Shown here: in pieces, positions 1-28,411 of the stretch | Numbering within the stretch: the first letter of the stretch is position 1 | Layout of the letters: the number at the start of each line of letters is the position of its first letter | DNA from: Lytechinus pictus | Taxonomy: Eukaryota | Direction of reading: 5' to 3' | NCBI RefSeq assembly: GCF_037042905.1 | Contig: NC_087245.1 | Span: 36,148,001-36,212,000, forward strand | Length of the DNA: 64,000 nucleotides | The notes under the pieces: model-generated | The model's input: the letters and a program-made list of their open reading frames with translations, nothing else | Databases searched by the model: none | What the model was told of the DNA's origin: nothing | Program-made: the position numbers and the translations under genes

Positions 1-3000
1 CGTGCAGGTGCATATGCCCGGCAAACTTATTTGACAGCCCGCGTTGAGTCATGTTTAAACCGCCGCACAGAGGTATGTTGTTTTTCATCTGCAAAGGTTT
101 CGAGCTAAACACGGTTATATCCGATACCCTTGATTGTATCGTAGACGAAATATCCGTTGTGAATGATCCGGTTGACATGGATTCGCCTGCAGTGGGGGGG
201 GGGGGGGGGCGGGGCGTGGTTAAAAGGCATGTCGCTTAGATCTGTCAAGAGGGTGTGTAAGTCAATAAAATTGACTTATGATGTGGCTTTACTAGAAACG
301 TATAAATCCAAGCGCATATTGACCACAGGGGCGTAACAGGGGTCGGTGGCCGGAGGGGGGGGGGGCAAGAGCCAAAAATTTCCCGGTCATATCATAGTAT
401 GAACAGGATTTTTTTTTATGATTGTGCCCCGAGCATTAGGGCGAAGCTCAATGCGTGATAAGTACCCCCCCCCCCAAAAAAAAAAGGAGGGGCACAGCAT
501 GGCGCGCGCGCAAAAATTTACTCAATAAAGCCCCGAGCGAGCGTAGCGAGCGAGAAAAGAAATTGCTTTCTCATGAGAATCTAACTTTGTGATTGATTTT
601 GACATGGATTCAGAAAATAACATAATATCTTACATCTTTCTTTCCTTTCATTTTCTTTCATCTTTTATTTTTTGTTCTTGGTTGTAGAACTTTTACGGTA
701 GGCAGTGCCATGCGGCAGGCGCGGATCCAAGATCTTGTAGGGAGGGGACCCAAATTTGACTTGTGTACTTTTCCAAAAATGATGCCCCTCCCTCTCTGCC
801 AAACAAACATAAGAGCCTTCAAATGCATGTTGAATTATCTTACTTTATAATCACATGAAAAAAGGCAATTGAAGACCATTTTTCTTTTAATGTACTCATG
901 AAGAAAAAAAATCCATTAATATAATCACTTTTTTAAATAATAAATGCGAGCGCCAAGCGCGAGCGATTTTCTGTTTTAAGCCTTTTGGGTTTCAATTTTG
1001 TTTAATCTCTCATCAGAGGAGGCCCTAATAGAATTGTGTAAACAGGAGCTGTATACTAGCCGTTTTAGAGTATAGCATTCAATTATTGATAACCTCTTGG
1101 GAATAATGCAATTTCGAAGGCAATCGACTAATTATAACAATCTCCTCATCAGTGGTGTAGCTGGGATTTGTTCAGAAGGGGCGCATGGGGGAGGGGGCTT
1201 GTGAACTTTTTGTAGGTGTAGGGGGCACCATGATAAGAAAGAAATTGGTGTGGGGTACAGACCGGAGTTAAAGAAAATCTGAGATCTATTCTAAAAAAAT
1301 GCAATGGGGTATTTCACAAGGCCTCAGTAAATAATGCGAACGCGAAGCGCGATCTGATTTTTTTCTTATTGTTCATGTATTTATCTTGAAAGCTTAAGTA
1401 ATTGTTGTGATGAACACGATGCATATCTACTTTTTGAAGAAAAAAGTGAGTGCGAGCCTGAAGCGCGAGCTGATTTTTTTTTATTTTTTTTAATTTCCAC
1501 AATAACAGCAAGTACATGTTTTACATCTCAACGTAATTATGGAAAAAATTCAATTCAAATTACATTGGAATAAAACAATACAATACGTTCGTGAAAGCAG
1601 TCAAATAATTGATAATGATCAGACAACAAAAACACCGATTAATTTTTAAGTTTGAGTTTGCGTTTAAAAGTAAACAAACTTGGTGAGTTCTTTATATATA
1701 GACTCATCCAGAGAATTTAATAAATCAAGACCAGTGTGAATAATAGTTTTCTGTTTAAATAATGTTCTCAACAAAGGAAGGTGAAGTTATGATAATTGTA
1801 TTGTGGGATAGCTATGGAAACGATCATTTTTGGTAAATAATAAACTTAGAAGGGTTGGCAATTCACCGCGATTTAATTAGTACATAAAACAGCCAAGACG
1901 AAGGTGATATAAGTAATTCATTTTCACAATTTTATTAAAATAAAAAAGTTCATCTGTGTGAGCCAGTGGCGTAATTACGGGGGGGGGGGCAAGATTATAC
2001 AGCAATGTTCTATAGATATTCACTTTAGATTGAGAAGGGAAACATAAAACAATGAACTCAAAAGCAGCATTACGCACAAGCGTAATATTTTTTTTTTCGT
2101 CTTAGAAGTGAAACGCGAAAAAAAAAACATTTGAGTTCAAAAGCATCATTATACATAAACATAATACAATATTTTTAAAAGAACTTAGGGTAATTAATTT
2201 CACATTTCGTCTCGGACAATCAGAGAAAAAACAAAACAAATACTGTGCTCACAATAGGGGCCAAAGTTAGGTTAAAGCAAAAATTTCAATTTTCTTCTAA
2301 CATGTACAATAATATGCAAAGGAAACAGTGTGTGTGAGGGTGTTCGTGTGTGCGTGTGTGACACAATCAACTCATATTTTGCATATCAATATGTTGTGTT
2401 GGAAAACGCAAAAAACAATTAGTTTATAACAAAATTTGATTTGAATGTTTTTCCACTCTTGTTTTTTATTTACAAAATACATGATAAACAAAGAATAATT
2501 ATAATTATAATTATGATCCATGATAATACATAAATGACAAACTAATAATAATTAGATTACAATATGAAGTAAAAAAAAAAGTAAACATGTTTAGAAAAAG
2601 AACAAAGTATTCAATGACTAATTACAAGTTGGAGAAGGGGTTTCTGCGAAAAAGCAAAAGTGGTGCGATCATAGGCGGCGGAAGCGGGGGGGGACATGTC
2701 CCCCTAAATTTGAGGTGGGGGCGTTATCGGACACAAGCATAGACGCTATACACTAGCATAAATAACCATTTTTATTGTATTTATAATTCATAGTACTTGA
2801 CCATATATTTTCACTTTCGCCTGAGAAAGGAAATTTAAAAAGTTCAAAATCGGGACCAAATTGGGTGGCAACAATAAAAATAGCAAAATACTGCAGGTGA
2901 TAATACGACCTACCCCCCCCCCCCCCCCCTCTCTCCAATAACAATATCATGATATCAACATGTTAATCCGTGGATGCCATTGGACAGACTCTAATTAATC

Positions 3001-3541
3001 TCTAAATTTACAAGAAATTCAAGCTCAATATTTCTAATACAAACACAAGATTTACTCAGGAATAATGCATACCAATATTTCTTATAAATACAGGTATCAT
3101 TTAATATATTCTGGACCCCTAGGCAGAACAGAGTGGTAATAATTACCTTTCTGGGTGGACAATCCAGCCATGCATATGTATTTATTTGTATTTTATTTCG
3201 TAATTATATCTGATGTATTTTGCATGTTTTTTATGAATGGAAAATATATACAATATAGATCCCTATTAATTTGTTCAAAATCATTCTGCCTCACCACTGA
3301 ATTGCCAGTAGTAGCAGTCACTGTTCAAATCAGATGGAAAACACATTTATCTCTCGACGTAGCATTAGCATGCACATTTAATTTATGTATGTATACTTGT
3401 GTAAGGACTGCAGTTGAAAAGTCTAGCTTTTAAAAACCCTCTGCCTTGACGACCAACCAGACGTGTTTTTTATTCAACGATGTAAGCCTACTAAATCTTT
3501 TCATTTTGTTAAAACTGCGAAATGAATGAAATTGAATAAAG

Positions 3542-3911
3542 TTAGTTTGATGTCTGATACAGTTCATTATCAATCAACCCGTCATCATCTTGCTCACATG
3601 TCAGTGGACGTGACGTCACCAGAGAGACTTCGGTATCCATATACGTATGCATGGGATCTTCGGAAGTACCACTCCGAATCGGAGGCATGTCCATGTAAGC
3701 ATATTCATGTTCATCCACATCGCTTGCCATACTGGGCATACTGGGAGGCAATGTTGGATCCGAGGCATACACGTTTTCGTTCACACACAACGTCTCGTGT
3801 GCGAGTAACGGGGTCGGTGTGGTGTCCTCTGATTGGTCGGAAGTTACGTTGCCCATAGTAACGAGGGGACTGCCAAAAGCAGGCGGATTGCGTAACTGTT
3901 GTCTGTTTTTC
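3542..3911 (-). CDS. SMB-SRCR receptor, last exon (7): cytoplasmic tail
   Basis: Acceptor ccctttacacag|G, phase 2. Encodes (R)KNRQQLRNPP...ENVYAS...HEYAYMDM...TYMDT...DNELYQTSN*, in frame with the TM exon. Confidence 0.85.
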
Positions 3912-4428
3912 CTGTGTAAAGGGGTAGGGTTACCTAATATGAGCCACATACATGTAACTATGGAAGTTTTTGTGCATATTCATATTAAACGTTTCAAACA
4001 CAGAATCATAAGAGAGTGTATGAAATAATATTATCTTTTGGTATTTAAGGAATTCTTTATTGTTATAAATATACTAGTAATACACAGAACAGAATTTAGT
4101 TCAGTTATAGTTTTATACTTTCTCATTCCCAACAAAGAAATACAAAATCAATGTAAGTATCATAAGCGCAGAACAGTCATTTAAACGTCTTCAATATTCA
4201 ATGCACTTTCAACCAAAGATGGTATTTCGCACATACTCGGGTTCAGCGAAAACGAGTGCAAACTTTAAAAGAAGTATTTTATGAGCAATTATACAATATA
4301 ACATGCCTCATTTTAGCCAATCACATAGCACCATCCTGCGTGGAATATAGTAAATATCATTAACGTCAACAGACGTTTACAATCTGCAACCGATTACAGA
4401 ATTCGAAAACAAAGCCTAGGTTTCTCAC

Positions 4429-4510
4429 CTCTGAAATCTGACCATCACAATCAAGGCGACTATGATAAAGAGAAGAACGACCGCTACACCGATTATGATG
4501 TAGATATACA
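4429..4510 (-). CDS. SMB-SRCR receptor exon 6: transmembrane helix
   Basis: tttgcttttcag|...|gtgaga. Encodes MYIYIIIGVAVVLLFIIVALIVMVRFQR. Phase 1 in, phase 2 out, matching both neighbours. Confidence 0.9.
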
Positions 4511-4938
4511 CTGAAAAGCAAATGTACATAATATCATAGACTTAAATCATGATTATGAGAATATATTACATAGCTTATGTAGGTTCGAATCAGTGATAGG
4601 TCAATACGCCATCACGTGATCATAGCTGCGAGGATCGCATTTGGTATATTCGAGGTTTTGACGTCACCTCAGTGAATATAACTGCGTTGTTTTTTCAATT
4701 GCGGCGTTATATTCACTAAGGTGACGTCACTCGCTGCTTACAAGTTGCGTAATCATGTAGTTTATTTGATGTACGCGCTAGTGTTAATGCGTCGATTGCA
4801 TGAAGAACGCGCTTGATGTATTTTCCAAATTTGTTCTATTATGACGTAGACGGATCAGAGCTGTAGCAAGAATTTCGGGTTGGGGCCAGATGATGAAGGC
4901 ATTATCTTATGGCGAATCCATATAGACTATATAATATA

Positions 4939-5128
4939 ACAGATATTGCCTGGTCTATCGTTTTAATAAATTAACATTTCAACTCCCCTCCGAAGCTATA
5001 TTTTTCCCTCGGGAGAATATTTTCCCTCAGCGCTGCGCGCTTCGGGCAAAATATAATCCCTCGGGAAAAATATAACTCCGTCGGGGAGAGGAAATGTTAT
5101 ATTCAAACTCTAGGTAGGCAATATCTGT
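4939..5128. mobile_element. Palindromic MITE
   Basis: Ends ACAGATATTGCCT / AGGCAATATCTGT, with internal inverted arms TATATTTTTCCCTCGGG / CCCTCGGGAAAAATATA. Confidence 0.6.
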
Positions 5129-5164
5129 ATAATATTACCTGCATATTAATGATAGTAATAACGA

Positions 5165-5315
5165 TTTGTTTACATGGGGTAGCCTCTTCAACCCTTCCCC
5201 GATCTAAATGCTGAGCTCTAAGCTAATATTAAAAAAAAGAGTATATGGTATGACTCGGCCGGGCATCGAACCTACCATGAAGCGGGCGCTCTACCACTGG
5301 GCGGCCATGCACGGT
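5165..5315 (-). mobile_element. tRNA-derived SINE fragment
   Basis: Reverse strand reads CAGTGGTAGAGCG...GGTTCGATGCCCGGCCGAGTCATACC (A/B-box-like head) without a complete cloverleaf. Confidence 0.55.
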
Positions 5316-5488
5316 TTATTCTGCACCTCGCGAGACATTTCCTTTTCTTTACGATTTTTTTTTATTATTTATTTGTTTAGTATGGTTCCATGACATATAC
5401 TCCGGTGACAATTGCTCGGGTATATATCCCACTCTCTAATCGAATGACAAACTGCAACCCAAATTTTATAAACCACTTCAATCCTACG

Positions 5489-5869
5489 CACTAAGGAAAA
5501 TAGGTTCAACATTGCACCTTTAGAGATGCAGACCAAATGTCAAACTTGGAGCACCTTTATGGTGCAACTTTGTACCTTTTTGGAAAGGTGCAACTTTGCA
5601 CCTCTCTGAAAGATGCAAATTAGCACCATTAAGGTGCAGAATTGCACCACACAGGTGCTTATTTGCACCTTCAAGAGAATGCAAAGTTGTACCCGTCCGA
5701 AGGTACAAAGACTATACATGCTATACGCGAGGTTCAAACTTGCACCCCCATTACCCGCTGTGGGCCTGCGCAGGCGCGGTGGCGAGTGATAGGTGCAACT
5801 ATGCTCGAATATTCGCTCTGCACCTTTTTCCGCAAAGTTGCACCTTTCGTGCAACCCTATTTCTTAGTG
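5489..5869. mobile_element. CACTA-ended MITE with reiterated TTGCACC motif
   Basis: CACTAAGGAAAATAGG ... CCTATTTCTTAGTG termini and many internal TTGCACC/GGTGCAA copies. Confidence 0.6.
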
Positions 5870-6167
5870 TTTAACCTCAACCCTCCGTATTAGATTAAAT
5901 AAACCCCGGATCATTTGTCGCAGGAGCAAATGTCGTCACCACCCTGACATGAATTCGGGTTTTAATAAAAAACAAAAAAAGAAAAAAAAATAAGGAAGGT
6001 TCGACAAAAATCTGCCAAAGTGTAACAGAGCTTGAATTTTCAATGAATTTTATTTTGTGACGTCACATGAAAGCAACTGCTTTTTCATTACATGAATGCA
6101 ATACACTAAGTTTAAGTGTCCCCCGGAATCTTCGCCTGTGGTAACAATACAGAATTGATGTACGTAC

Positions 6168-6320
6168 TATCGTTTTTGTCCTCATTAGTATTCGAATGTT
6201 TTGTTATTGTTGTGCTTGATGATTGAGATGACGACACAGTTGATGAATGAGTTTTAGTCGACAAGATAGGTGTGCTGATTGCAGTGGCCACAGTCGTCTT
6301 TTCAACAGCATCGCTGTCGT
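6168..6320 (-). CDS. SMB-SRCR receptor exon 5: Ser/Thr-rich stalk
   Basis: cttctttccatatag|...|gtacgt, 153 bp, phase 1-1. Encodes DDSDAVEKTTVATAISTPILSTKTHSSTVSSSQSSSTTITKHSNTNEDKND. Confidence 0.8.
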
Positions 6321-6454
6321 CTATATGGAAAGAAGATGAAAATCACACACAGTTAAAATTTAGATTTAGATAATGAAAATACGCTAGCCCTTCCCTCGCA
6401 CACAGGGCTAGTGCTAGGGTATTTTGATGGGGGAGCAAAACTAAAGATGACGTC

Positions 6455-7170
6455 ATATGACCACCACCATCATCATCATCATCATCACCACCACCACAAT
6501 CATCATTATCATCATAGTCATCATTAAAATCATCATTATCACCAGCACCACAATCATCATCACCATCACCACCATTATGACCATGATCATCATCATCACC
6601 TTTATCATCATCATCACCACCACCACCACCACAATTATTACCATTATCATAGTCATCATCACCATCAACATCAAAATCATCACCATCACCACAATCATCA
6701 TCATCATCATCATCACCACCACCGATCGTCATCATCACCATCATCACGACCACGGGCACCACCATCATCATCATCACCACCACCACCACCACAATCATCA
6801 TTATCATAGTCATCATCAAAATCAAAATCATCATTATCACCATCATCATCATCACCATCAGGACCATGATCATCATCACCATCAAAAATCAAAATCATCA
6901 CCATCATCATCATCACTATCATCATCACCATCACCACCACAATTATTACCATTATCATAGTCATCATCACCATCAACATCAAAATCATCACCATCACCAC
7001 AATCATCATCATCACCACCACCAATCGTCATCACCACCGTCATGATCATCACGACCACGGGCACCACAATCATCATCACCACCACCACCACAATCATCAT
7101 TCTCATAGTCATCATCAGAAAATTCAAAATCATCATTATCACCATCATCATCATCACCATCACCATTTCC
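6455..7170. repeat. (CAT/CAC)n compound microsatellite with higher-order duplication
   Basis: Trinucleotide array in the receptor intron. Source of the spurious His-, Asp- and Ile-rich ORFs. Confidence 0.95.
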
Positions 7171-7269
7171 AACCATCAGTCGGTCACTGTACACATAAAA
7201 CATAGAGACGAGCTAATACCATCAATTTAGAGTCAAATTGCAACGTGGAGTATTGATTCCAGTACGTAC

Positions 7270-7383
7270 CGATGCAGGTGAGCCCAAGAAGACCTTTACA
7301 GCAGTCAACTTGTGAATCAGTTGAACACAAACCCTGTGTAGTTATATTGGTAGTGAATGTGCACTGGCTGAGATTCCTTGCAC
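7270..7383 (-). CDS. SMB-SRCR receptor exon 4: C-terminal half of SRCR domain
   Basis: ttttcgacacag|...|gtacgt, 114 bp, phase 1-1. Encodes GARNLSQCTFTTNITTQGLCSTDSQVDCCKGLLGLTCI, matching the SRCR L..C...C...G..C pattern. Confidence 0.85.
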
Positions 7384-7742
7384 CTGTGTCGAAAATTATA
7401 TTTTAGAGACAAAGGAGATAATGAACATTAAAATAGGTGAACGTCTTCAAGTTACCACCTCCACATCCGAAGTAGAAAAGGTTTTATTTCCAAGGGCTTG
7501 GCAGATGTTACGGCACATTAGTAAACTGCACATTTTAGTAAATGACGAAAATGTGCAGTTGCAGAAATGTTATTCAGGGCTTCAGTCCTTGAGGGAAACC
7601 CTGATCCGCATCTGAAATGAACATTAGTCTGCAGGCACTGACACTGATTGACACTTTGATCAACAAGTGAGTCTCCACGCAAAGACTAGCACTGCACATA
7701 AAACTTGCTTTTGCTGAGGGCCTTCAGTACACAAGGCATTAA

Positions 7743-8928
7743 AGCCCCTTTCACAATTGACGTACGACCTGTTTACGACCACCTGCAACAGTTTTTTCTT
7801 GTTGTTGCACGATCGATCCCTTGGTGTCTTGCGAGCACTCGCAGTCGTTGTAGACGATCGCACAAACTCGAGGTGGTCGGAGGTGATCGTGACTGGTCGC
7901 ATCTGAACTTTGAACATGTTCAAAATCCAAACGCGATCAAATACGATTGATTCACTCGCAACAGGTCGTACCATCGGTCGGGCGATCATCGTGTGAGTGT
8001 TGTTCAACGTTGTACGACTTGGTGCGAGAGGTGGCACAACTAAGTATAGTCGCATTTAGTCGACTGGAGGTCGTACAACACTTGCACATGTGCTGGAGAC
8101 CTACAGAGACCAGTCTTGCGACTGGGTGCGATAATATGAGACTGTTGCAAGACCGATCGAAATTACGGCTTACTACATTCCACTACCGTTGCATTCGCAT
8201 GTATGCGACCGTTCAGCCCCTTTCACAATTGACGTCCGACCAGTTTACGACCGCCTGCAACAGTTTTTTCTTGTTGTTGCACGATCGATCTCTTGGTGTC
8301 TTGCGAGCACTCGCAGTCGTTGTAGACGGTCGCACGAACTCGAGGTGGTCGTGGCTGGTCACATCTGAACTTTGAACATGTTCAAAATCCGAACGCGATC
8401 AAATACGATCGATTCACTCGCATCAGGCCGTACCCGGGGTCGTACCATCGGTCGGGCGATCATCGTGCAAGTGTTGTTCAACGTTGTACGACTTGGTGCG
8501 AGAGGTGGCACAACTAAGTAGTCGCATTTACTTGACTGGAGGTCGTGCAACACTTGCACATGTGCAAGCGACCTACATGTACAGAGACCTGTCTTGCGAC
8601 TGGTTGCGATAATAATATGGGCCATAAGACTGTTGCAAGACCGATCGCAACGGCTTACAACATTGCACTACCATTTCATTCGTATGTATGCGACCGTTCC
8701 ACTCGCAATCCCTCGTGCAACACTCGCATGTGATCGCACGAGCACAATAAGACCATATGCGACTTACTCGTGCAATGGGGTTTACTGGTTGTTTTTGTTG
8801 TACGACAGCTGTTGCAACTGTGAAAGCCTCTGTGCGATCTTATGAGATGACTAGCGATTGATGCCTGTTGCAGCCTGTCGCACGACCAAAAGGTCGCAAA
8901 TGGTCGTACGTCAATTGTGAAAGGGGCT
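7743..8928. mobile_element. Non-autonomous PIF/Harbinger-like element, copy 1
   Basis: TIR AGCCCCTTTCACAATTGACGTACGACC / GGTCGTACGTCAATTGTGAAAGGGGCT, TSD TAA/TAA. The left ~470 bp is repeated internally (second left end near 8215). Confidence 0.85.
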
Positions 8929-8930
8929 TA

Positions 8931-10525
8931 AGGCGACCGCACACCTTACGATTGGTCTGCGACCCGATTTCAGAATAAAATGTTGTAGAATTTGATGCTA
9001 ACATTGAGACTTGGAATATCTTAAGCCCCTTTCACAATTGACGTACGACCTGTTTACGACCGCCTGCAACAGTTTTTTCTTGTTGTTGCACGATCGATCT
9101 CTTGGTGTCTTGCGAGCACTCGCAGTGGTTGTAGACGAACGCACGAATTTGAGGTGGTCGGAGGTGGTCGTGACTGGTCGCATCTGAATTTGAACATGTT
9201 CAAAATCCAAACGCGATCAAATACGATTGAGTTACTCCCATCAGGTCGTACCATCGGTCGGGCGATCATCGTGTGAGTGTTGTTCAACGTTGTACGACTT
9301 GGCGCGAGAGGTGACACAACTACGTATAGTCGCATTTAGTCGACTGGAGGTCGTACAACACTTGCACATGCGCTAGATACCTACAGAGACCAGTCTTGCG
9401 ACTGGTTGCGATAATATAAGACTGTTGCAAGACCGATCAAAATTACGGCTTACAACATTCCACTACCGTCGCATTCGCATGTATGCGACCGTACAGCCCC
9501 TTTCACAATTGACATCCGACCAGTTTACGACCACCTGCAACAGTTTCTTGCTGCTGTTGCACGATCGATCTCTTGGTGACTTGCGAGCACTCGCAGTCGT
9601 TGTAGACGGTCGCACGAACTCGAGGTGGTCGTGACTGGTCACATCTGAACTTTGAACATGTTCAAAATCCGAATGCGATCAAATACGACCGATTCACTCG
9701 CATCAGCTCGTATCCGGGGTCGTACCATCGGTCGGGCGATCATCATGGGAGTGTTGTTCAACGTTGCACGACTTGGTGCGAGAGGTGGCACAACTAAGTA
9801 GTCGCATTTACTCGACTGGAGGTCGTACAACACTTGCACATGTGCTAGCGACCTACATGTACAGAGACCTGTCTTGCGACTGGGTGCAATAATATGATGG
9901 GCCATAAGACTGTTGCAAGACCGATCGCAACGGCTTACAACATTGCACTACCGTTGTGTGCGATCGTTCCCCTCGCAATCCCTCGTGCAACACTCGCATG
10001 TGATCGCACGAGCACAATAGGATCATAAGCGACTTACTCGTGCAACGGGTTTCACTGGTTGTTTTTGTTGTACGACAGCTGTTGCAACTGTGAAAGCCTC
10101 TGTGCGATATTATGAGATGACTGGCGATTGATGCCTGTTGCAGCCTGTCGTACGACCAAAAGGTCGCAAATGGTCGTACGTCAATTGTGAAAGGGGCTTT
10201 ACTGTGTAATGTTCTAAATCATCGTACGAATATACCTATGTTCAAATCTGTGACTATGCTATCACCCTTCTTAGAATAAAAGCGAATTTAATATCTAGTC
10301 GTAACGACGTCATAGCAGTCGTACGATTGGCTACGATTTGAAACTTATTTGGCCTTTACTCCGAAGTAAAGGCTTGCAATCTTTCAAAATGGTTATATTA
10401 GTATTCTTTCAATTGATTTAAACCTCAAACAAAATGACATGTTCCATTCAAATTTTCAGAAAATGAGCAAAATGCGATTTGTTCCAAAATCGGATCGCGA
10501 ACAGCCGTGAGTTGTGCGGTGGTCT
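8931..10525. mobile_element. Host MITE (~420 bp without insert), Harbinger-like
   Basis: Ends AGGCGACCGCACACCTTACG / GTGAGTTGTGCGGTGGTCT, flanked by TTA. Interrupted by the 9024-10198 element. Confidence 0.75.
9024..10198. mobile_element. Non-autonomous PIF/Harbinger-like element, copy 2
   Basis: Same TIRs and internal duplication, TSD TTA/TTA. The empty site is visible in the host paralogue near 14690. Confidence 0.88.
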
Positions 10526-10603
10526 TTACGTGTATAGGCTGCCCAGTCAGACCCTTAACCCGAGGGAAGGTTTTCACAGCAGACTATATATACTACAAAT
10601 TAC

Positions 10604-10831
10604 CTGAACCGCATGATGCGTATGAGTGTAGGATGGGGATGGAGACGTTCAACGAGGTGTCGGTCGAATAACTGGATCCAGTGTTCGAGTAACCGAGCTG
10701 AGCGCATGCAGCGGATGCCTCCCATGTTAACCATCTACCACCGTGGCAGATATAACCAACGTCCTCCTCTCTCGTCTTCTCTTGAACGATGACCAAACCT
10801 TCAAGGGATGCAGCCCCCGCAAAATGAATCC
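10604..10831 (-). CDS. SMB-SRCR receptor exon 3: N-terminal half of SRCR domain
   Basis: Encodes RIHFAGAASLEGLVIV...GYICHGGRW...ASAACAQLGY...YASCGS, resembling SRCR VRLVGG..EGRVEV..WGTVC..W...A.VVCRQLG. Donor CAG|gtaatt. The acceptor (gatgaag|) is weak, so the 5' boundary is less certain. Confidence 0.85.
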
Positions 10832-10978
10832 CTTCATCATCAAACATAAAAGCAACATAAAAAAATCACAAACATAGAGTGTAAAGCATAATAAGGTATC
10901 ATCCCACCCCCGACACAAACATTGCAGATAAAGGATATTTCGTTTATTACAAGTCCAAGTGTATGATATTTCATTTCA

Positions 10979-10985
10979 TTTCATT

Positions 10986-11076
<91 letters not shown>

Positions 11077-11078
11077 TT

Positions 11079-11145
<67 letters not shown>

Positions 11146-11160
11146 TCTATTTATTTAATT

Positions 11161-11205
<45 letters not shown>
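10979..11205. repeat. (TTTA)n microsatellite
   Basis: Direct observation. Confidence 0.97.
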
Positions 11206-11206
<1 letters not shown>

Positions 11207-12156
11207 TCACGGTATACTCACTTCAGCATATTGGCTGTTGATATATGACTATGTTATCAATATATATTCATGTTAACAGTGGTGTAATGAGCCCCAGACT
11301 TTGAGGGGACACAACATGTTAAACACATTTTAAAAAGTCGCGATCGAGCGAAAGTTTTGGCGTTTTGAACTTTTGGAATGAAAATCTAATTTGTGATGTA
11401 TTTGACGCAATATTCAACAAATGATACCATATATCATACTTTTTTCATTTATTAATTTATTTTGGAAGGGGGTGAATATTTGGAGGACAGAACCCTCTCC
11501 CAAGCCTGCACCTGTATTTTTAAAAGAATAATCCCAAAACCGCCCTTTATACGGTTGCCAAAAGCTGATTCCGTCTACTGGTACATGTGGACCTTCCGCC
11601 TAAAAGCAATACTATGTTGCTGCCCTCTGCGTTCGTTGTGGTACACGTTTGCTCTATTGTTTAAAGAGATACTCCAAGATGAAAATAATATGATAGTGAA
11701 CAGATAAAGGAAATCAGACTTAACCAATCGAAACACTGAAAATGGCATCAAAATCGAACGAGAATAACAAAGTAATGACATTTTAACATGTCTAATACAT
11801 GTCTTCATGAATATGCAATTAGAAATTAAGCTGATGGTATAAATATCCCACTTATTATCAGTACTATTTTGTATTTATTACATGAAATTATATTTATTCA
11901 AATTTTGTCGACCGAGAAGGAAAAAAAATGGATCGACAACAGATCAACTACGCTAGGGAGACATATTTTGCAAAAATATATGAAAATATTTGCCCAAGGG
12001 ATAAATAATTTGGCCGAAGCGCATAGCACTGATGGAAAATATTGTCTCAAGGGAAGTATTGCTTTGGTAAGAATATACAGATAGATAGATCATTAAGTAA
12101 ATAAAAAATAGATAAATAAATAAATAATTGTCGACGGGACGTTCATTTATACTTAC

Positions 12157-12294
12157 GGGTGCACTTTTGTAAAAAGTCGGTACAGCAGTCATTGAATTTA
12201 ACACATTTATCATTACATTGGCAACTCATTCCTCCATCGAAACTACCACATCTACTTCGGGATCTACTTTCACAAGAATGCAATTGATTGGCTC
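12157..12294 (-). CDS. SMB-SRCR receptor exon 2: somatomedin-B domain
   Basis: tttctctattctgcag|...|gtaagt, 138 bp, phase 1-1. [39 protein letters not shown] has the 8-Cys SMB pattern. Confidence 0.9.
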
Positions 12295-12898
12295 CTGCAG
12301 AATAGAGAAACCATGATAAAAGTGTGGTTAAAATGACGAGGTTGTTGTGATGGTTGTTTCGTTTTAAATAAATGTTATCAATAGCGTAACAGGTGGGGAG
12401 CAGGGGACAGGCTGCCCCCAAGGACCTGGAAAGCGGGTTGTAAAGGACTGGGGAATTTTCGGGAATTTTCAGCTGCTAGGAATTTGGGAATTCTCAATTT
12501 TTTTTTTACACAAACTGAAAAATTGTATTTTTAAATACAAACTTATCATGGACATTCTCATATAATTTATTTTCCATACATACAGTCTACACAAAGAGGT
12601 TTACCCAATATTGAGTAAAATGGGAACATGCACGTTGGTTGGGTAAAAAGATATATTTTGTAAATTTTACGTTGCGTTGAAATATCCCAATATGGGGATA
12701 ACAAGGGCGTCGCTAGGGCGAGCACATAATACGCCCGCCTGTAACGCAGAAAATTGAGTCATTGGTCAAGCAAGAAAAGTGATAGGTGGCGACTCGACCT
12801 TTGACCTTTTCACCTAAAAATCAATAGGCTTCCTGGGATCCATTCTAGTATTATACACACCAAATTAGCTAAAGGACGGAAAGAGCGAGGAAAGATCC

Positions 12899-13804
12899 AG
12901 GCCTGGTCACACCGCCAGAACTTTGCTGGAGCGTTCCTGGAGCGGTGAAAAAAATTCATCACCGCTCATTACCGTTTACCACCGTTTAACAGAAGTTGGC
13001 TCTATTATAAGGCAACGCCGTATACGCTCGGCTACCGCTGATGGTCCCTCCTCCCGCTCCGAAAGTTTAGAGCTACACAAAAAAATTGCGAGCGGTGAGG
13101 AGCGGGCAATTTCAGCTCCGGAAAAGTTCACTACCCCGGGGTTCACCACCGCTCCAACAACGCCCAGTCAAAGTTTGGCATCGCGCGCTAGACGCAAGTT
13201 CGAGGACGCGTGGGTCTGCTAGGCCAACGCAGAAATATCTTGAACGCTGCATGGACCACCGCTGATTCGCCAGCTTTGCCCGGGCGGTGATTAAACGTTG
13301 CAAAAACTTTGGTGAAGCGGTTGTAAGCGTTTTACGAGCGGACACAGGATTGCTTGAACGATGTCGGGCGATCCATCGCGGTGATGAGCTTTGGTTTGGC
13401 GTTGGTATGGAGGTGTCGGAGCGGGACCAGCATTTGGCTATAAATATGGGGAGAAATGGACCAGGAACCCTTTTAGAATCTATTAGAATTTCTATCAGAG
13501 CGAACTGGTCAAATCCAGAGTCAAAAGCGGAATCCCGCTAAACCAACTTTTAATCCCCGCCGTGCCAATGCCCACATGCGCAGAACGCCACTCTATCAAC
13601 ACTTGCGTCACCGCTATACCAACGTTCGCTACCGTTAAACCAACGCTAAAGCCATACCGGCTTCAGCGGCGCAGCGCTCAGGCAACGCCCGTGTTTTCGA
13701 TTTTCCCCCGTTTTTGCGCGGTGACGAGCGTTGTAAAAATTCGGCCCCCTCTCCATACCGTTGAACGAACGCTCCAAAAAAGTTCGGGCGGTGTGACCAA
13801 GCCT
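12899..13804. mobile_element. GC-rich non-autonomous DNA element (Harbinger-like TIRs)
   Basis: AGGCCTGGTCACACCGCCAGAACTTT ... AAAGTTCGGGCGGTGTGACCAAGCCT. No clean TSD. Confidence 0.7.
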
Positions 13805-14616
13805 AAGATACATGAAACGTCTATACAACGCTAGTAGCACGGAAATAGAAAGGATGTAAGCGTACGCATCTCATAAATAAAGTATAAAAAAACGGTAACC
13901 CTTTGGAACTGTCATCCACTTCCATCCGTTTTCACCCGCTAGGTTTTCGATGAATATCCGTTTAGCACCCGCGCAACATAGTACCCACGTCCTTTCTTTT
14001 CCGTTATGTTTTCGTAAATTTTGTCAAATTCTGGAGCGGATGAAGCGGTAGATTAGCGCCCTATTATTCTTCTGCCAGTCAAATATAGTTCCGAACACTT
14101 ATATATTTCTTCCCCATTCGGACAAAGAAAGGTCAGTGATTGCCCTACCTAGAATCAGCGTAAGATGGTAAATCATTATGCATACACCTTTGTCAAACAG
14201 CTATTTTCAAATTAGCGAATTTGGGATTGGGTTGGGTCGAATGAATATCTTTTGCCTTCCTTCCTTTCTGGATGGATAGAGGAGCAACCTCTACCATCAA
14301 AATCATTCAAGCGCCCTATGTATAACAACCATCTTTTCACCTTTCTGCGTTTCTTGATTAATTTTCAATTTAGACATTTTCATTGACGAAAGAGGAGTAG
14401 CTCGATTATCAGGCTGCATTTTCGAGACAATTCTCAATTTTAAATTGTGGCCTCGTTGCATTTATTAGAAAGAATCGCTTTAATTCAAATAAGAAGAAAT
14501 TCGGCGAAACTCTTGAAATATTATTCAAACATCAATATGTGAGCGACATTACAAATGAATCATTTCCATTTGAATGCTCAATTGCTTACAGCTCCATTCA
14601 TATCAGTGTTTTGAAC

Positions 14617-15022
14617 ACGATTGGTCTGCGACCCGATTTCAGAATAAAATGTAGTAGAATTTGATGCTAATATTGAGACTTGGAATATCTTACTGTGTAA
14701 TGTTCTAAATTATCATACGAATACCTATGTTCAAATCTGTGACTATGCTATCATCCTTCTTAGAATAAAAGCGAATTTAATATCTAGTCGTAATGACATG
14801 AATGACGTCATAGCAGTCGTACGATTGGATACGATTTGAAACTAATTTGGCCTTTACTACAAAAAAAGGCTTGCGATCTTTCAAAATGGTTATATTAGTA
14901 TTCTTTCAATTAATTTTAACCTCAAATGAAATGATATGTTCCATTCACATTTTCAGAAAATGAGCAAAATGCGATTTGTTCCAAAATCGGATCGCGAACA
15001 GTCGTAAGGTGTGCGGTGGCCT
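14617..15022. mobile_element. Second, uninterrupted copy of the host MITE (left TIR missing)
   Basis: Near-identical to 8948-9023 joined to 10202-10525. Ends TCGTAAGGTGTGCGGTGGCCT|TTA. Confidence 0.85.
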
Positions 15023-15164
15023 TTAGGTACGTGGGACAAAATGATTTGGCGACAGGGGCAGTAGACCTATTAAAGGGTTTCAAAGTTCATTACTTTGATT
15101 ATTTCTTTTTAATGTAAAGGACAATTTTTCAAAAATCACTTTTTTTATAACAGTGGTATACAAT

Positions 15165-16260
<1,096 letters not shown>

Positions 16261-17124
16261 CTAGTACTACAGTAGAAAGGGTTTAAGCATTATTGTTGCG
16301 GTGACATCAGGCCTGTCAGGAGCGGTAGTAGACGGTATAAAAAACATAGTGTAGGTGAAAAATAGAATATAAGATGGGGGTCGGGTGTCTGGTTTTGAAT
16401 ATGAATATTATATGAATTCAACAGTTGTAATCTTCTTTAATTGTGTTCTATTTGATATTGCCAAACATTTTGTACTAAAAATTGTTGAGACTTTGGTTGA
16501 TGACTTTTACAAATGGCTGTTTAAAATCGACTTTCCGAACATACATCTGGGTATATATTTGGAGGTAGAAAATAAATCGAAGCTGTCAACTCAGTTCAGT
16601 AGTAATGTCAGCTTTCCTTTTATAATAATTTTGAGGTAGTGTGCGATAGAGGTTTAATTTGTCAATAAAACGGTCAATGCTACATTCTAGCATTATGACG
16701 GACATAAAGAAATGATTTTTATTAACCTTGCAAATAAAAAACCTACCTTCTCATCCAGAAATAATGAATAAAAATCGTTATGATGATGTGTTTATTATTT
16801 ACCTTAAAAACATGCTGTTTTCCCTCTTTCTGAAACAGCGAACGAATCGAAGTGTCCTAATAAAGACGTGCGATAAACTAAGTTCCATAAAAAAAAAAAA
16901 GGGCCCAAGCCCGGCCGTATGTGCGGAAGTTCATTTAAATGAGAATGAAACATTAGCATTGCTTGTCCATAATTATACAAAAAGTAAACAAACAGGTGCG
17001 CCGTGGCCATTCCCTTAAATACCGCACCCCGATTGGATGAAAGTTTTCACTCTACGCAGGCGTCATTGTGATGTCACGTCAGATAGTTCGTTGACTTCTC
17101 GGATTGACCTATTTCTGGTGACTG

Positions 17125-17295
17125 GGTGGTGTTTCATAAAGCTGTTCGTAAAGTTACGCACATCTTTACGCACGACTGGAACCTGTTCTGAGGTGCTAAA
17201 TCAGTTACATAGGGAGATCATTTAGCACAAGAAAGGGTCACCAGTCGTGCGTTAAGTCATTCGTATCTTACGACCAGCTTTATGAAACGGGCCCC
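17125..17295. mobile_element. MITE, TTTCATAAAGCTGTTCGTAA family
   Basis: Inverted ends. Related copies at 42640-42794 and 54369-54528. Confidence 0.75.
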
Positions 17296-17572
17296 ATGCA
17301 GGGGCCCTACATTAAAGGCGCATAAGCATTGCTGGACATCTTCAACCGTCTTGTCTAACGAAATTCCGGTTTTATTTTTCCAATCACTAAAATTTATTTT
17401 GTATATTATGATGGTGAAGATGGATTAAAGAGGAAGGGGAGGTGAACAGATATAATGTATCACGTTTTACTAAAAAAAATCTTTAAAAAAATGCAAACAA
17501 ACAAAAAACTAAGATTGTGAGTATCAGGACAATAATTATTTGGGAATTTATTTTCCCTTCCCCGAGACCTAA

Positions 17573-17790
17573 GCGGTGTTGCAAGAAAATATTTGCGATC
17601 AATTGCAAATATTCTGTTGCAATTTTACAACTGATAGATCAATGTTAGCTGAAGCAAATCAGATTAAACTTCTTGTTTCAAGGAGCAGATTAGCAATCAA
17701 TCACTAATTTGCAATTAACTACAAGTCATAAAATTGATTTAGGGATCAAAAATAGACTTGCAATTGATCGCATGTTTCTTGCAACACCCC
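17573..17790. mobile_element. MITE with GGTGTTGCAAGAAA TIR
   Basis: GCGGTGTTGCAAGAAA ... TTTCTTGCAACACCCC. Confidence 0.65.
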
Positions 17791-18090
17791 ATTAAGAGCT
17801 GAAGGTGCCGATAGTGTCTATTTTTTTAAAAGGAAACCAAAACCAAAGGAGAGAATCAATCTTTGAAGAAAGAGTAAAATGAGGAGAGCAATATCAAAGA
17901 AGTTTTTATATCAAAATGGTTTATGAAGTAACAGAGTTGCGGAAGTGAGTAATTTCAATGGGTGTCCTTAAATTGGCAACCATGCTAAAAAAAATTGCAA
18001 ATTTTGTGGACAAATCTCCATTTGCTTTTTACGCATATTTTAAGATTTCCCCCCATTCTTACATCTTTTCTTGCTTTTGAGCTCAAAATA

Positions 18091-18301
18091 CACTGCAAAA
18101 ACTCCGGTGTTGATTAACACCAGCCCAGAATCTATATCCGTCCACATTAGAGAATTATTGCTGTTTTAATACTAATTGGTGTTGTATAAACACTTATCTG
18201 GTGTTAGACCAAAACGAAACTGGTGTTGTTTATTACTTCTCTGGTGTGGACAGATATAGATTCCGGGCTGGTGTTAAATCAACACCGGAGTTTTTGCAGT
18301 G
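18091..18301. mobile_element. CACTG-ended MITE, TA TSD
   Basis: TA|CACTGCAAAAACTCCGGTGTTGAT ... ATCAACACCGGAGTTTTTGCAGTG|TA. Paralogue at 63243-63490. Confidence 0.85.
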
Positions 18302-18982
18302 TATTATGTCATAAGAAATATAATTTACACCACAGATGTCAAGGTCAGGGGGAGTATTGCACTTGAGTAATCTACTGAGTGGATTTGGCGCTTGATTTAG
18401 TCACATAATCATAAATACTTTGCCAATTTAAGCGGGTAAGGATCCCTATGGATAATGTCAGAAAGACTTCAGATAATTTCAATAACTCTTATTTTATAAC
18501 TATATTTTTATGAAACTTTTTGCTTTGCTCCCCGCCTCATTTAACTCTTTCCTATAAGATTCTTTTCACAAGTTTCAACACGTTGGAATTGTGTGAAATA
18601 GTTTGTTTTTCTTTTTTTTTTCAGAATAAATGGCTTCAGTCTATACACAAATCACGTTTTAATTGGAGCAATTTTGGGTCCATCAACCTCGACCTTTTTT
18701 GGCCATCATTTCGCCTCACGATTTTTTTTTTTTTACCGGCCGAATTTTGACGTCTTGCGAATATGTATTAAAACCAAATTTGCCCGGTTACGCGGTTGCG
18801 AAATTACGCAACATTCGCAACCGCGATCCTGAGTAAATTTTGGTCTTGAACAAATGCGCATTCAGTGTAGACATGTAGACAGATACTAGATATAGGTAGT
18901 AACTATCAAAATGGAAATAAATTCAAAATAATAATTTGCAAATTTAACAAGTTATGATAAAGAGTATACACATACGACCTAC

Positions 18983-19052
18983 CTGTTTTGCAGAAGAAAC
19001 ATAGAGTCAATGGCAGGCCAACTGCCAAGAATAACTTCTTCATTCTCTTCAT
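18983..19052 (-). CDS. SMB-SRCR receptor probable exon 1: signal peptide
   Basis: ATG at 19052. MKRMKKLFLAVGLPLTLCFFCKT has a basic N-region and hydrophobic core. Donor CAG|gtaggt in phase 1 fits the SMB exon. The link across the 6.7-kb intron is inferred. Confidence 0.6.
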
Positions 19053-19263
19053 TTTGCTTCCAAAATAACTGATTCTATTTGAGAAAGTCAATTAGCACCT
19101 TTTCTAAACTACATGCAACCTTAATTCACTTTCTCTTTGCTGAGTAGTTGTGACATGAAATACCTCTCATCCTCAAACCCTTAGTTTTCTCTCCTTTTCT
19201 TTCAGAATCGTACTTCCGGTATGCTACATGCAACTGCATAGGAAATCCTGAAAATTTGTACTA

Positions 19264-20250: not shown

Positions 20251-21096
20251 TATAGTGTATGTTACATGTACAGTATATTGGACTGCCCGTTCAGAGCAAT
20301 ATTCAGATAGATTTATAATGGGCAAATTCAGGTACAAGGATATATTGTTACCTATATTACTTCCACATCCTATAAAATTGAGAATTCCCAACTATTGTTA
20401 AACAAAATGTGTAGCGCTACTACCTTTTCTAAACTACAGGCAACCTTAATTCACTTTCTCTTTGCTGAGTAGTTGTGTCATGAAATACCTCTAATCCTCA
20501 AACCCTTAGTTTTCTCTCTTTTTTAAACAATGTTAAGTTATTCCTGCAGCCCTATTCCTGCTAATACAATGCATCTCAGAAAAACACAAAAAATATTGAT
20601 TTTTTTTGCCAATTAAATACATTTAACATTTGTAACCATAAGGAATGGGTGATAGGTCCCTATAATTCATTGTCATACTTGTGTCATTTAATGCGAGTCG
20701 GTATGATGCAAAATATGAGAAATAATTAAGAGAACAGGTTCAAAATGAGTATCACCGGTTTGTAGCCGTTTCATGTATCAAAGCCTGTATACGCTCTAAC
20801 TTGCAGGGATTTGAAATAAATCCAGGTGAATTGTAATTATAGGGACCAATCGAATTCTGGATTTAATTTTAATCCTTAAGATTCATTCTTAAATCTCAAA
20901 GAATTTAAATTCAAATTCCTCCAGATTTAAAAAGAAATTCATGGGATTAAAACTACATCCAGAATTCAATTTTCCCTAACTATACTGTACAGTCTGATTG
21001 ATTTCTGGATTTTGTTAGAATCCTAAAGGTTCATTCTTAAGAATCTCGAAGAATTGAATTCAACTTTCTCCAGATTTAAAATCAATTAGGATTAAA

Positions 21097-22250
21097 ACAA
21101 GTGGAGCGCCTCTGGCAGTCTCACCTGCATCACGCGATACAATATAGCAGCAGTGCTGAATTTCAAAACTATACTATAAAATAATTATTCACAAAAAACA
21201 TATAACTCGGACACAATAATACGTTCATTGACAGTAAATGACATTTGACCTTGATCATGCGACCTAAGACTTGTCAGTGATATTTGATTTACCCCTATAT
21301 CTACATTTTAGAAACTATATCTATAAACTTTGAAAGTTATGACAGCAATCTAATTACCTCCAAAATGGCCAAAGTTCAATGACCTTATATTTTAAATAAC
21401 CTTAGACTTTGATCATGTGACCTGAAACTAGCATGAGATGTTCAGTGATACTTGATTACTCTTGTGTCCAAGTCTTATGAACTAGATCCATACACTTTTA
21501 GAGTTATGATGGTTATTCAACAAATACCCCAAACATGGCCAAAGTCCATTGACCTTTGATTTTGGTCATGTGACCTGAAACTCGCAAAGGATGTTCAGTG
21601 ATTCTTGATTACTCTTATGTCCAAGTTTCATGAACTAGGTCCATAATATTTCAAATGTATGATGGTAATTCAACAGATAGCCCCAACTTGGCCAAAGTTC
21701 ATTGACCCTAAATGATCTTTGACCTTGGTCATGTGACCTGAAATTCGCACAGGATGTTTAGTGATACTTGATCAATCTTATGTCCATGTTTTATGATCTA
21801 GACCAATAAACTTTCAAAGTTATGATGGTAATTCAACAAATACCCCCAACTTGGCCAAAGTTCATTGACCATAAATGACATTTGACATTGGTCATGTGAC
21901 TTGAAACTCAGGTAGGATGTTCAGTGATAATTGATTACGCTTATGTTCAAGTTTCATGAATCATATGCTTTCAAAGGTATGATGGTAATTCAACAGATAC
22001 CGGCAAACTTGGCCAAAGTTCATTGACCCTAAATGACCTTTGACCTTAGTCATGTGACCTGAAACTCGGACATTATATTTAGTAATACTTGATTAATCTT
22101 ATGGTCCAGTTTCATGAACTAGGTCCATATACTTTCTAAGTTATGCTGTCATTTCAAAATTTAACATTCTGTTAAGATTTAGTGTTGACGCCGCCGCCGC
22201 CGTCGGAAAAGCGGCGCCTATAGTTTCACTTTGCTATGCAGGTGAGACAA
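21097..22250 (-). mobile_element. Helentron-associated (HINE/DINE-like) non-autonomous element with ~160-bp internal tandem repeats
   Basis: Subterminal IRs GTCTCACCTGC / GCAGGTGAGAC, a short GCC-AGA-GGC hairpin at one end, (GCC)n near the other, A/T-run flanks, and about 5-6 units containing GGCCAAAGTTCATTGACC...GTCATGTGACC. Confidence 0.65.
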
Positions 22251-26531: not shown

Positions 26532-26534
26532 AGG

Positions 26535-28027: not shown

Positions 28028-28411
28028 GTAACACGATCGTGATTGACTGGCGCATTCGGCGCTCCGAAACTACCCGGAAATCAATTGACTTCTAAATAAA
28101 GGACTACGGTGTATTCTCTGTTAATATCCGTTTCCAACCTTGTGATTTGATCTGTAGTGCTTCTTTCTTTCCTGAATCCAGATTGGATAGGGGTGATGAT
28201 ATTATTTTCCTCTATATACCAATTCATTCTGTTCTTTATCAACCTTTCCATCAGTTTACATAATTGGTCGATAAGACGATGGATTAGAAGCTTCCTTTCC
28301 TTTTTTTAAGATTGGAATTTGTATAGCTTCTGACCATTGATATGGCAATAAGCTCTTAACCCATATTTCATTGAATAAATCTAGTATGACGTCAAATATC
28401 TTACCTGGAAT

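What the first reader, a model, noticed from the sequence alone, without database searches (positions are those of the whole stretch)
3542..19052. Hidden 7-exon receptor with SMB + SRCR + Ser/Thr stalk + TM + multi-tyrosine tail
Seen: seven minus-strand GT-AG exons (70+138+228+114+153+82+370 = 1155 nt) join in phase without stops into 384 aa, of which the ORF track shows only fragments. Known: SRCR proteins are expanded innate-immune and adhesion receptors in marine invertebrates, and SMB domains mediate protein binding (vitronectin, ENPP). Inference: one SMB followed by one SRCR, coupled to a signalling tail, is an uncommon architecture and may be an uncharacterised signalling receptor.
Basis: partly seen in the sequence, partly recalled or inferred. 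Interest (0 to 1): 0.72.

Follow-up and report, generated by a model that had tools for sequence, protein, structure and literature searches.

The report
Sea urchin somatomedin-B SRCR surface receptor
This is a real, already catalogued but unstudied sea urchin cell-surface protein, one of hundreds of scavenger-receptor-like genes, with an unusually drifted outer domain and an inner tail that probably recruits signalling proteins.

Summary
Seven minus-strand exons with six GT-AG introns (70+138+228+114+153+82+370 nt) give 384 aa with no internal stop. It is not hidden: the product is identical to RefSeq XP_063957651.1, 'uncharacterized protein LOC129266469', Lytechinus pictus. Orthologues exist in L. 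variegatus and S. purpuratus. Contigs from probable RNA runs carry several exons at intron-free spacing.

Anatomy: signal peptide, SMB (Pfam pass), a divergent group-A-type SRCR (fold Z 11.3 to CD163), Ser/Thr stalk, TM, and a disordered tail whose 5 tyrosines are kept in all three species. The SRCR has no D/E at the six SALSA cation-site positions and carries an extra Cys-Cys pair.

The SMB-SRCR pair is not unique: an echinoid family (SMB-SRCR-WSC-CCP-TM) shares it and lies on a same-length contig in two species. Best reading: a fast-evolving, non-catalytic receptor working like CD5/CD6 (protein ligand outside, phosphotyrosine docking inside), about 55%. Ligand, cell type and immune role are untested. 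A new, uncharacterised member of a known, heavily shuffled superfamily. Interest 0.3.

The parts
18983..19052 (-). Exon 1 (coding part): start codon and probable signal peptide, aa 1-24
   Evidence: in-frame stop upstream. Basic n-region then hydrophobic core (12-residue Kyte-Doolittle mean up to 2.3), conserved in S. purpuratus. SignalP not available.
12157..12294 (-). Exon 2: somatomedin B domain, 8 Cys (aa 31-68); this allele has a 4-residue insertion relative to P0001
   Evidence: Pfam PF01033 31.8 bits, cut-off 23.1. PDB matches EndoU, vitronectin and SUSD2 SMBs. X1 contig piece 12157-12297 with 0 other letters.
10604..10831 (-). Exon 3: first two thirds of the SRCR domain (aa 70-146); purine-rich, weak-looking acceptor; skipped in an S. 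purpuratus isoform model
   Evidence: PF00530 19.5 bits, E 0.0013, below cut-off. P0007 joins the SMB directly to the exon-4 equivalent. X5 contig piece 10603-10800.
7270..7383 (-). Exon 4: last third of the SRCR domain, with a 7-residue insertion holding an extra Cys-Cys (C173-C174)
   Evidence: Alignment A2. Fold match spans model residues 69-186.
6168..6320 (-). Exon 5: Ser/Thr-rich stalk (46% S+T), probably O-glycosylated
   Evidence: pLDDT <50 over aa 187-230; only 24% identical to S. purpuratus; X1 contig piece 6168-6320.
4429..4510 (-). Exon 6: transmembrane helix (about aa 236-258) followed by basic residues
   Evidence: 19-residue hydropathy up to 3.5; helix 231-269 in the model.
3542..3911 (-). 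Exon 7 (coding part): disordered cytoplasmic tail with Y310, Y332, Y334, Y352, Y380 and the stop codon
   Evidence: 5 of 5 Tyr invariant in three species; pLDDT <50 over 270-384; no Pfam family.
3186..3541 (-). Probable 3' UTR with AATAAA at 3474, 3197 and 3186
   Evidence: X1 contig piece 3203-3597. Contigs cannot fix an RNA end.

Best explanation
A single-pass type I surface receptor with no enzyme activity of its own. Shown: signal-like N-terminus, SMB, SRCR fold, Ser/Thr stalk, TM and a disordered acidic tail with five conserved tyrosines. Inferred step 1: the stalk holds a compact SMB-SRCR head away from the membrane. Inferred step 2: because the acidic cation site used by SALSA and MARCO for broad, calcium-dependent binding is missing, the head binds a specific protein partner on another cell or in matrix/coelomic fluid, rather than microbial polyanions. 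Inferred step 3: clustering lets a Src-family kinase phosphorylate the tail, which then docks SH2 proteins (YxxM at Y334 in Lytechinus, a recalled PI3K-type motif) and a PTB adaptor (C-terminal N-x-x-Y at Y380). It works like CD5/CD6 but is not their orthologue. It most likely arose from the echinoid SMB-SRCR-WSC-CCP-TM family by duplication and loss of WSC and CCP, then diverged quickly.
For: Topology and domains: (Z 11.3, rmsd 2.7, 104 aligned to CD163; CD6 Z 9.5). All 5 tail Tyr are invariant while the tail is 57% identical between L. pictus and S. purpuratus; E-N-x-Y, E-Y-x-Y, H-T-Y-M-D and I-D-N-x-L-Y contexts are kept. NxxY is named as a PTB motif in PMC4985636 (passages). CD5 and CD6 are SRCR receptors whose 4 and 9 tail tyrosines dock SH2 proteins (PMC6305463, passages); CD6-CD166 binding has lost calcium dependence (PMC7043408, passages). 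0 D/E at six cation-site positions in 5 of 5 focal records. Feature look-alikes of the TM plus tail include SCIMP, MUC1 fragments, poxvirus A36R and LIME1 (all under 0.9, leads only). Origin: the top 8 of 134 non-focal domain hits to the focal SRCR profile are SMB-SRCR-WSC-CCP proteins; their loci have the same longest-contig length as the focal gene in both species.
Against: No phosphorylation, binding or expression data. Conservation within 3 residues of the tyrosines is not higher than in the rest of the tail (19/30 vs 46/89, p=0.30). YxxM becomes YxxV in S. purpuratus. The same motifs also fit endocytic sorting signals. Loss of the acidic site is not rare: 9 of 50 other distinct SRCR domains have at most one D/E/N/Q there. 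The SRCR tree leaves the focal clade on a long branch (2.88) in an open polytomy, so sisterhood with the WSC-CCP family is not resolved; the score margin is small (21.1-26.5 vs 21.0 bits), and the SMBs do not rank as closest (155th-365th of 455, in a set pre-selected for likeness to the query). Raw reads of one run gave zero depth in the exon-only bins (X21, about 6% read), another about 1x (X24).
Confidence: 0.55

Rival explanations
1. An endocytic or scavenger-type receptor: the head captures ligands and the tail tyrosines act unphosphorylated as sorting signals (Yxx-hydrophobic and NxxY) for clathrin adaptors, like insect class C scavenger receptors, which also carry an SMB and a Ser/Thr stalk.
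For: Y334 and Y380 fit recalled AP-2 and PTB-adaptor sorting patterns. SR-C proteins have CCP, MAM, SMB and Ser/Thr domains plus a TM (PMC6191154, passages). The fold is shared with CD163, MARCO, SCARA1 and SCARA5.
Against: The acidic cation site that SALSA needs for ligand binding is absent. One SRCR with no collagen or coiled-coil region gives little avidity. In Sf-SR-C the fragment holding the SMB was not among those reported to bind.
Confidence: 0.2
2. A developmental adhesion or matrix receptor unrelated to immunity: the SMB binds a secreted or matrix protein as in vitronectin or SUSD2, the SRCR is a structural spacer, and the tail links to cytoskeletal adaptors.
For: The SMB is intact with 8 Cys and is about as conserved as the SRCR (68% vs 65% to S. 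purpuratus). An S. purpuratus isoform model drops most of the SRCR but keeps the SMB (P0007). The gene has clear one-to-one orthologues, unlike a tandemly amplified immune array.
Against: No RGD. The SRCR cysteines, including the extra pair, and many surrounding residues are invariant in three species, more than a passive spacer needs. No expression data either way.
Confidence: 0.17
3. A duplicate under relaxed selection that is drifting towards loss of function.
For: The SRCR diverges faster than the paralogue's (65% vs 84% identity between L. pictus and S. purpuratus). It falls below Pfam's cut-off in most records. Two L. pictus records differ at 17 positions plus an insertion. RNA depth is low.
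Against: The frame is intact in three species; PMC11688612 (passages) puts the L. pictus-S. purpuratus split at about 40 million years. All 16 SMB and SRCR cysteines and all 5 tail tyrosines are invariant.
Confidence: 0.05

Closest known systems
LOC129266469 (L. pictus), LOC121417806 (L. variegatus), LOC100889106 (S. purpuratus): RefSeq 'uncharacterized protein'
   Same: The window's product is identical to XP_063957651.1/XP_063957659.1; the others are full-length orthologues.
   Different: Nothing in architecture. The S. purpuratus model has a 53-aa N-terminal extension whose L. pictus counterpart looks like 5' UTR with in-frame stops.
Echinoid SMB-SRCR-WSC-CCP-TM receptors (LOC129266459; XP_003725934 / XP_030830643; Diadema XP_072180906)
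   Same: N-terminal SMB directly followed by one six-Cys SRCR with the same linker length, then TM and a tyrosine-bearing tail; 29-31% identity over SMB-SRCR; same longest-contig length as the focal gene in two species.
   Different: They have WSC and CCP domains instead of a plain Ser/Thr stalk, a much more canonical SRCR (about 83 vs 22-37 bits on my profile), no Cys-Cys insertion, and an unrelated tail.
CD5 / CD6 (vertebrate group B SRCR receptors)
   Same: SRCR ectodomain, TM and a non-catalytic multi-tyrosine tail (PMC6305463); fold match CD6 Z 9.5, CD5 domain III Z 7.3.
   Different: SRCR-only ectodomain of three domains (CD6: PMC4533223, search listing), group B, no SMB, T-cell expression. 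No sequence evidence of orthology.
Class C scavenger receptors (Drosophila dSR-CI, Sf-SR-C)
   Same: SMB plus Ser/Thr stalk plus TM in an invertebrate receptor (PMC6191154).
   Different: They use CCP and MAM domains; no SRCR is listed for them.
Group A SRCR scavenger receptors and SALSA/DMBT1 (MARCO, SCARA1, SCARA5)
   Same: SRCR fold (Z 9.7-10.2) and the six-cysteine core.
   Different: No acidic cation site, two extra cysteines; MARCO/SCARA are type II collagenous trimers (recalled) and DMBT1 is a secreted multi-SRCR protein.

Membership tests
Somatomedin B domain (PF01033) | Pfam gathering score and 8-Cys pattern | tested here: met
   31.8 bits for exon 2 and 26.6 for P0004 vs cut-off 23.1; Cys 31, 39, 48, 50, 54, 60, 61, 68.
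SRCR superfamily | Pfam PF00530 gathering score (26.1) | tested here: inconclusive
   P0001 passes (29.0). P0004 is not listed at E<=0.001; P0002 and P0003 are not listed at E<=1. All five focal records match a home-built SRCR profile run without filters at 22-37 bits.
SRCR superfamily | SRCR fold (curved beta sheet cradling one helix) | tested here: met
   Model pLDDT mostly 70-86 over aa 41-180, one block at 55; Z 11.3, rmsd 2.7, 104 aligned to CD163; all Foldseek rows shown are SRCR-bearing proteins. Caveat: the input alignment held SRCR relatives.
Group A SRCR | Six core cysteines, without the two extra cysteines of group B | tested here: met
   C98, C112, C143, C153, C165, C182 align with the six cysteines of the paralogues; definition from PMC10855680. 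An additional C173-C174 pair lies in an insertion, not at the group B positions (positions recalled).
Group A SRCR | Canonical disulfide pairing | not testable with these tools
   Model coordinates were not returned; the pairing of C173/C174 is unknown.
Cation-dependent pattern-recognition SRCRs (SALSA, MARCO type) | Acidic dual cation site (SALSA D1019, D1020, D1058, D1059, N1081, E1086) | tested here: not met
   0 D/E at six positions in 5 of 5 focal records. Positions were placed on my profile consensus, whose spacings (1, 38, 1, 22, 5) equal those in PMC7043408; the last two positions align uncertainly because of the insertion.
CD5/CD6 family | Three group B SRCR domains, no other ectodomain module | tested here: not met
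   One six-Cys-core SRCR plus an SMB.
CD5/CD6-like non-catalytic tyrosine-phosphorylated receptor (works-like claim) | Disordered tail with several conserved tyrosines and no catalytic domain | tested here: met
   5 of 5 Tyr invariant; no Pfam family in exon 7; pLDDT <50.
CD5/CD6-like non-catalytic tyrosine-phosphorylated receptor (works-like claim) | Ligand-driven tail phosphorylation and SH2/PTB recruitment | not testable with these tools
   Needs biochemistry.
Class C scavenger receptor | CCP and MAM domains | tested here: not met
   Neither found by Pfam in P0001-P0004.
Echinoid SMB-SRCR-WSC-CCP-TM family | WSC and CCP domains after the SRCR | tested here: not met
   Absent from the protein; tblastn of family members finds only exons 2 and 3 in the window.
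Echinoid SMB-SRCR-WSC-CCP-TM family | Common origin of the SMB-SRCR head | tested here: inconclusive
   Best SRCR scores and shared contig lengths favour it; the tree is unresolved.

The most novel reading that the evidence does not exclude
An echinoid-specific, CD6-like recognition receptor evolved independently of vertebrates. Its SRCR has swapped the ancient cation site for a new Cys-Cys loop, its ectodomain is kept as deeply diverged alleles within L. pictus, and skipping exon 3 switches ligand binding off while keeping the signalling tail. It would be a candidate self/non-self or cell-cell recognition receptor in a genetically tractable urchin.
Probability: 0.1. Interest if true: 0.65.

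Novelty: new member of a known kind. Interest (0 to 1): 0.3.

Why it matters
Most sea urchin SRCR genes are known only as counts, and how any of them signals is open (my knowledge; the papers read describe repertoire and expression). A compact, apparently single-copy SRCR receptor with an intact tyrosine scaffold, in a species with genetic tools, is a practical handle on that question. Its divergent SRCR also shows that Pfam-based repertoire counts can miss members. It does not change any general view: domain shuffling around SRCR is the norm in this group.

Tried and rejected
No whole genome is held for this window, so paralogues, synteny and dN/dS could not be tested on DNA. Linkage to the paralogue rests on equal longest-contig lengths and near accession numbers (S. 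purpuratus XP_030830641 vs XP_030830643; L. pictus XP_054760303 vs XP_054760292, but about 2,900 apart in the newer annotation).

Run search: no RNA holder listed; the holders are 'RNA?' by guess. Table 5 showed none of the exon junctions among its 15 rows (repeat joints dominate; 102 rows not shown), so junction support is by piece spacing only. Exon 1 lay outside the stretch laid.

AlphaFold with 3 sequences failed (pLDDT 33). Atlas searches gave no hit at 0.9 or above. Earlier findings: 0 in 3 look-ups.

Enriched conservation around tyrosines: not seen (p=0.30). Ectodomain-specific polymorphism: 14/206 vs 1/126 differences between P0004 and P0001 (p=0.012), but a third record, P0005, differs from P0004 at 5 tail positions, so I do not claim it. 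'Unique architecture' rejected. Identity with srcr142 rejected: that gene is LOC129277690 (PMC11688612 supplement). A shared tail ancestry with LOC754555 is unsupported beyond one 8-residue match (E 0.63). Weak Pfam hits over stalk and TM (TMEM154, Psg1, zf-A20 and others) are below cut-off and treated as compositional. No complex was predicted: no candidate partner.
Full report
**Observation.** I read the region on the minus strand and joined the exons by coordinates. The final model is 19052-18983, 12294-12157, 10831-10604, 7383-7270, 6320-6168, 4510-4429 and 3911-3542. All six introns are GT-AG, phases 1,1,1,1,1,2, giving 1155 nt and 384 aa with no internal stop. Symmetric phase-1 exons are typical of shuffled extracellular modules (established knowledge). 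An in-frame stop lies 18 codons upstream of the ATG. Open AG..GT windows of these lengths occur by chance (4-15 per length), so independent evidence was needed.

**Already annotated.** Searches with exon 7 and exon 3 each returned the same 3 proteins (of 70 and 53 candidates): LOC129266469 of Lytechinus pictus, LOC121417806 of L. variegatus and LOC100889106 of Strongylocentrotus purpuratus, all 'uncharacterized'. The cluster of the first holds a 384-aa record, P0004 (XP_063957651.1, XP_063957659.1), identical to my model at every position. The window is therefore very probably L. pictus, and the gene is not hidden.

**RNA.** Four runs were laid on 3000-12500. In X1 (contigs, RNA by guess) one 811-nt record has exon 5 at letters 233-385 and 3910-3568 at 469-811; the 83 letters between equal exon 6 plus the first base of exon 7. 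Another record covers 12157-12297 with no differences; its three extra bases are also the last three of exon 1. In X5 one record has exon 3 at 1-198 and exon 7 at 551-708, three letters more than exons 4-6 need, the same net offset as the P0002 stalk. Unique intron bins 3951-4267 and 10925-11241 have zero depth in all four runs (the second is largely a skipped repeat). Limits: the junction table showed only repeat joints (102 rows hidden), the exon 4 and exon 6 pieces were not among those listed, raw-read run X21 had zero depth in the exon-only bins (about 6% of the run read) and X24 about 1x.

**Anatomy.** Exon 2 is an SMB with 8 cysteines (Pfam 31.8 bits), matching EndoU, vitronectin and SUSD2 SMBs in the PDB; there is no RGD. 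Exons 3 and 4 make a divergent SRCR: of the four orthologous records scanned only P0001 passes Pfam's cut-off, but all five match a home-built profile. A model from a 23-sequence alignment is confident over most of aa 41-180 and matches SRCR structures: CD163 Z 11.3, MARCO 10.2, CD6 9.5. The alignment contained SRCR relatives, so this is not fully independent. The six core cysteines follow group A, and a 7-residue insertion adds an invariant Cys-Cys; Cys-Cys occurs in only 2 of the 82 other domain rows. The acidic cation site that SALSA needs for binding (PMC7043408, passages) has no D/E in any of 5 focal records, but 9 of 50 other distinct domains also have at most one D/E/N/Q there, so this is uncommon, not exceptional. 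Exon 5 is a 46% Ser/Thr stalk, exon 6 a TM helix, exon 7 a disordered tail. All five tail tyrosines are invariant across the three species at 57% tail identity. With about 55% of tail columns invariant, five of five has a chance near 0.05, and the flanks are not enriched (p=0.30), so this is modest evidence.

**Relatives.** A profile search of 1.84 billion representatives gave 226 hits at E<=0.001, of which I saw the best 150. Only 2 scored beyond 1e-30: P0001 and P0007. P0007 is an S. purpuratus isoform model lacking the exon-3 equivalent. Among the 163 proteins then held, 143 had SMB only, 9 SRCR only, 8 both, 3 neither; the 8 were five focal records and three Diadema proteins. A search with the Diadema SMB-SRCR head gave 5 hits of 264 candidates (lengths 250-797 only): SMB-SRCR-WSC-CCP proteins of Diadema, L. 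pictus (LOC129266459) and S. purpuratus, an SRCR-WSC protein (LOC754555) and a starfish multi-SRCR protein. The L. pictus and S. purpuratus paralogues have the same longest-contig lengths as the focal gene (44,300,000 and 39,667,378), and the S. purpuratus accessions are two apart. The paralogue is not in this window. Its SRCRs are the top 8 of 134 non-focal domain hits to the focal profile, by a small margin, while the tree of 87 SRCR rows leaves the focal clade on a long, unresolved branch. The focal SRCR is 65% identical between L. pictus and S. purpuratus, against 84% for the paralogue. All SMB+SRCR proteins I found are from sea urchins; these searches are limited in length range and sensitivity and do not exclude others.

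**Variation.** The two full L. pictus records differ at 17 positions plus a 4-residue insertion, 14 of them in SMB, SRCR and stalk; at 11 of the 17, P0001 has the L. variegatus residue. A third partial record differs at 5 tail positions. This may be deep allelic variation or unresolved copies; I cannot tell without DNA.

**Mechanism.** Best reading (0.55): a non-catalytic receptor working like CD5/CD6 (PMC6305463, passages), with a protein ligand bound by the SMB-SRCR head and kinase-dependent docking of SH2 and PTB proteins on the tail. Topology and conservation are shown; ligand, kinase and partners are inferred from motifs (YxxM and Src-type acidic contexts recalled; NxxY per PMC4985636). 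Look-alikes of the TM and tail include SCIMP, MUC1 fragments, A36R and LIME1, all below the tool's bar. Rivals: endocytic scavenger (0.2), developmental adhesion receptor (0.17), decaying duplicate (0.05).

**Literature.** Nine full-text searches. Gene and protein identifiers: 0 papers. SRCR + somatomedin B + sea urchin: 1 paper, a sponge study where SO appears only in a figure legend (PMC8242945, passage). SRCR + somatomedin + echinoderm: 2 papers on other topics (search listing only). PMC10855680 (passages, sections 2.2 and 2.7) reports 359 S. purpuratus SRCR genes, 70% in tandem clusters, with Sushi and WSC among the commonest partners; 'somatomedin' does not occur in its main text, and its supplement was unreadable (43 characters), so the orthologue or the architecture may be listed there. 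PMC11688612 (passages and supplements) studies srcr142, a different gene. PMC6376265 (passages) added nothing specific. Subscription papers, including the 2006 sea urchin immune repertoire paper (recalled), were not searchable.

**Verdict.** Real, correctly modelled, annotated but unstudied. A new member of a known kind with a mildly unusual head. Interest 0.3.

Noticed in passing
window 7742-8929 and 9023-10199 (intron 3): Two ~1.18-kb non-coding elements, 94% identical, each with perfect 28-nt terminal inverted repeats. The second sits inside an older repeat (8930-9022 plus 10200-10531; another copy at 14690-15028) with a TAA duplication; many reads show the uninterrupted form (joint 9020-10199). 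Looks like a young non-autonomous DNA transposon, PIF/Harbinger-like by its TAA target (recalled).
   Followed up: partly
window 19097-19198 and 20422-20523: A 102-bp duplication (96%) just upstream of the start codon; both copies are followed by GT on the minus strand, so they may be alternative 5' UTR exons. The proximal copy translates to a stretch resembling the S. purpuratus N-terminal extension, with stops, suggesting that extension is mis-called UTR.
   Followed up: partly
P0007 (S. purpuratus isoform X2); window acceptor at 10832-10833: An isoform model skips the exon-3 equivalent in frame, removing most of the SRCR and leaving five cysteines of it. The L. pictus exon-3 acceptor lacks a good pyrimidine tract.
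   Followed up: partly
window 28084-35662 (minus): Decayed non-LTR retrotransposon: gag-like Cys/His-knuckle ORF (34619-35407, no Pfam hit), endonuclease (33658-33990, PF14529 51 bits) and reverse transcriptase fragments (28084-28305, PF00078 28 bits).
   Followed up: partly
window 38075-41636 (minus): Further LINE fragments; 39011-39337 matches PF00078 at 35 bits.
   Followed up: partly
window 6468-7166, 10985-11205, 15175-16258: Long simple repeats in introns: CAT x232, TTTA x55, GTA x365. They produce long low-complexity spurious ORFs.
   Followed up: no
window 21235-22157, 26534-26962, 56027-56589: A ~160-bp tandem repeat with an inverted related copy near 26.5-27 kb, and a second minisatellite near 56 kb.
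   Followed up: no
   Followed up: partly
window 19100-64000: No other host gene was recognised among 19 ORFs of 110 aa or more; 13 window ORFs (12 from this range) were scanned against Pfam. Short-exon genes would be missed.
   Followed up: partly
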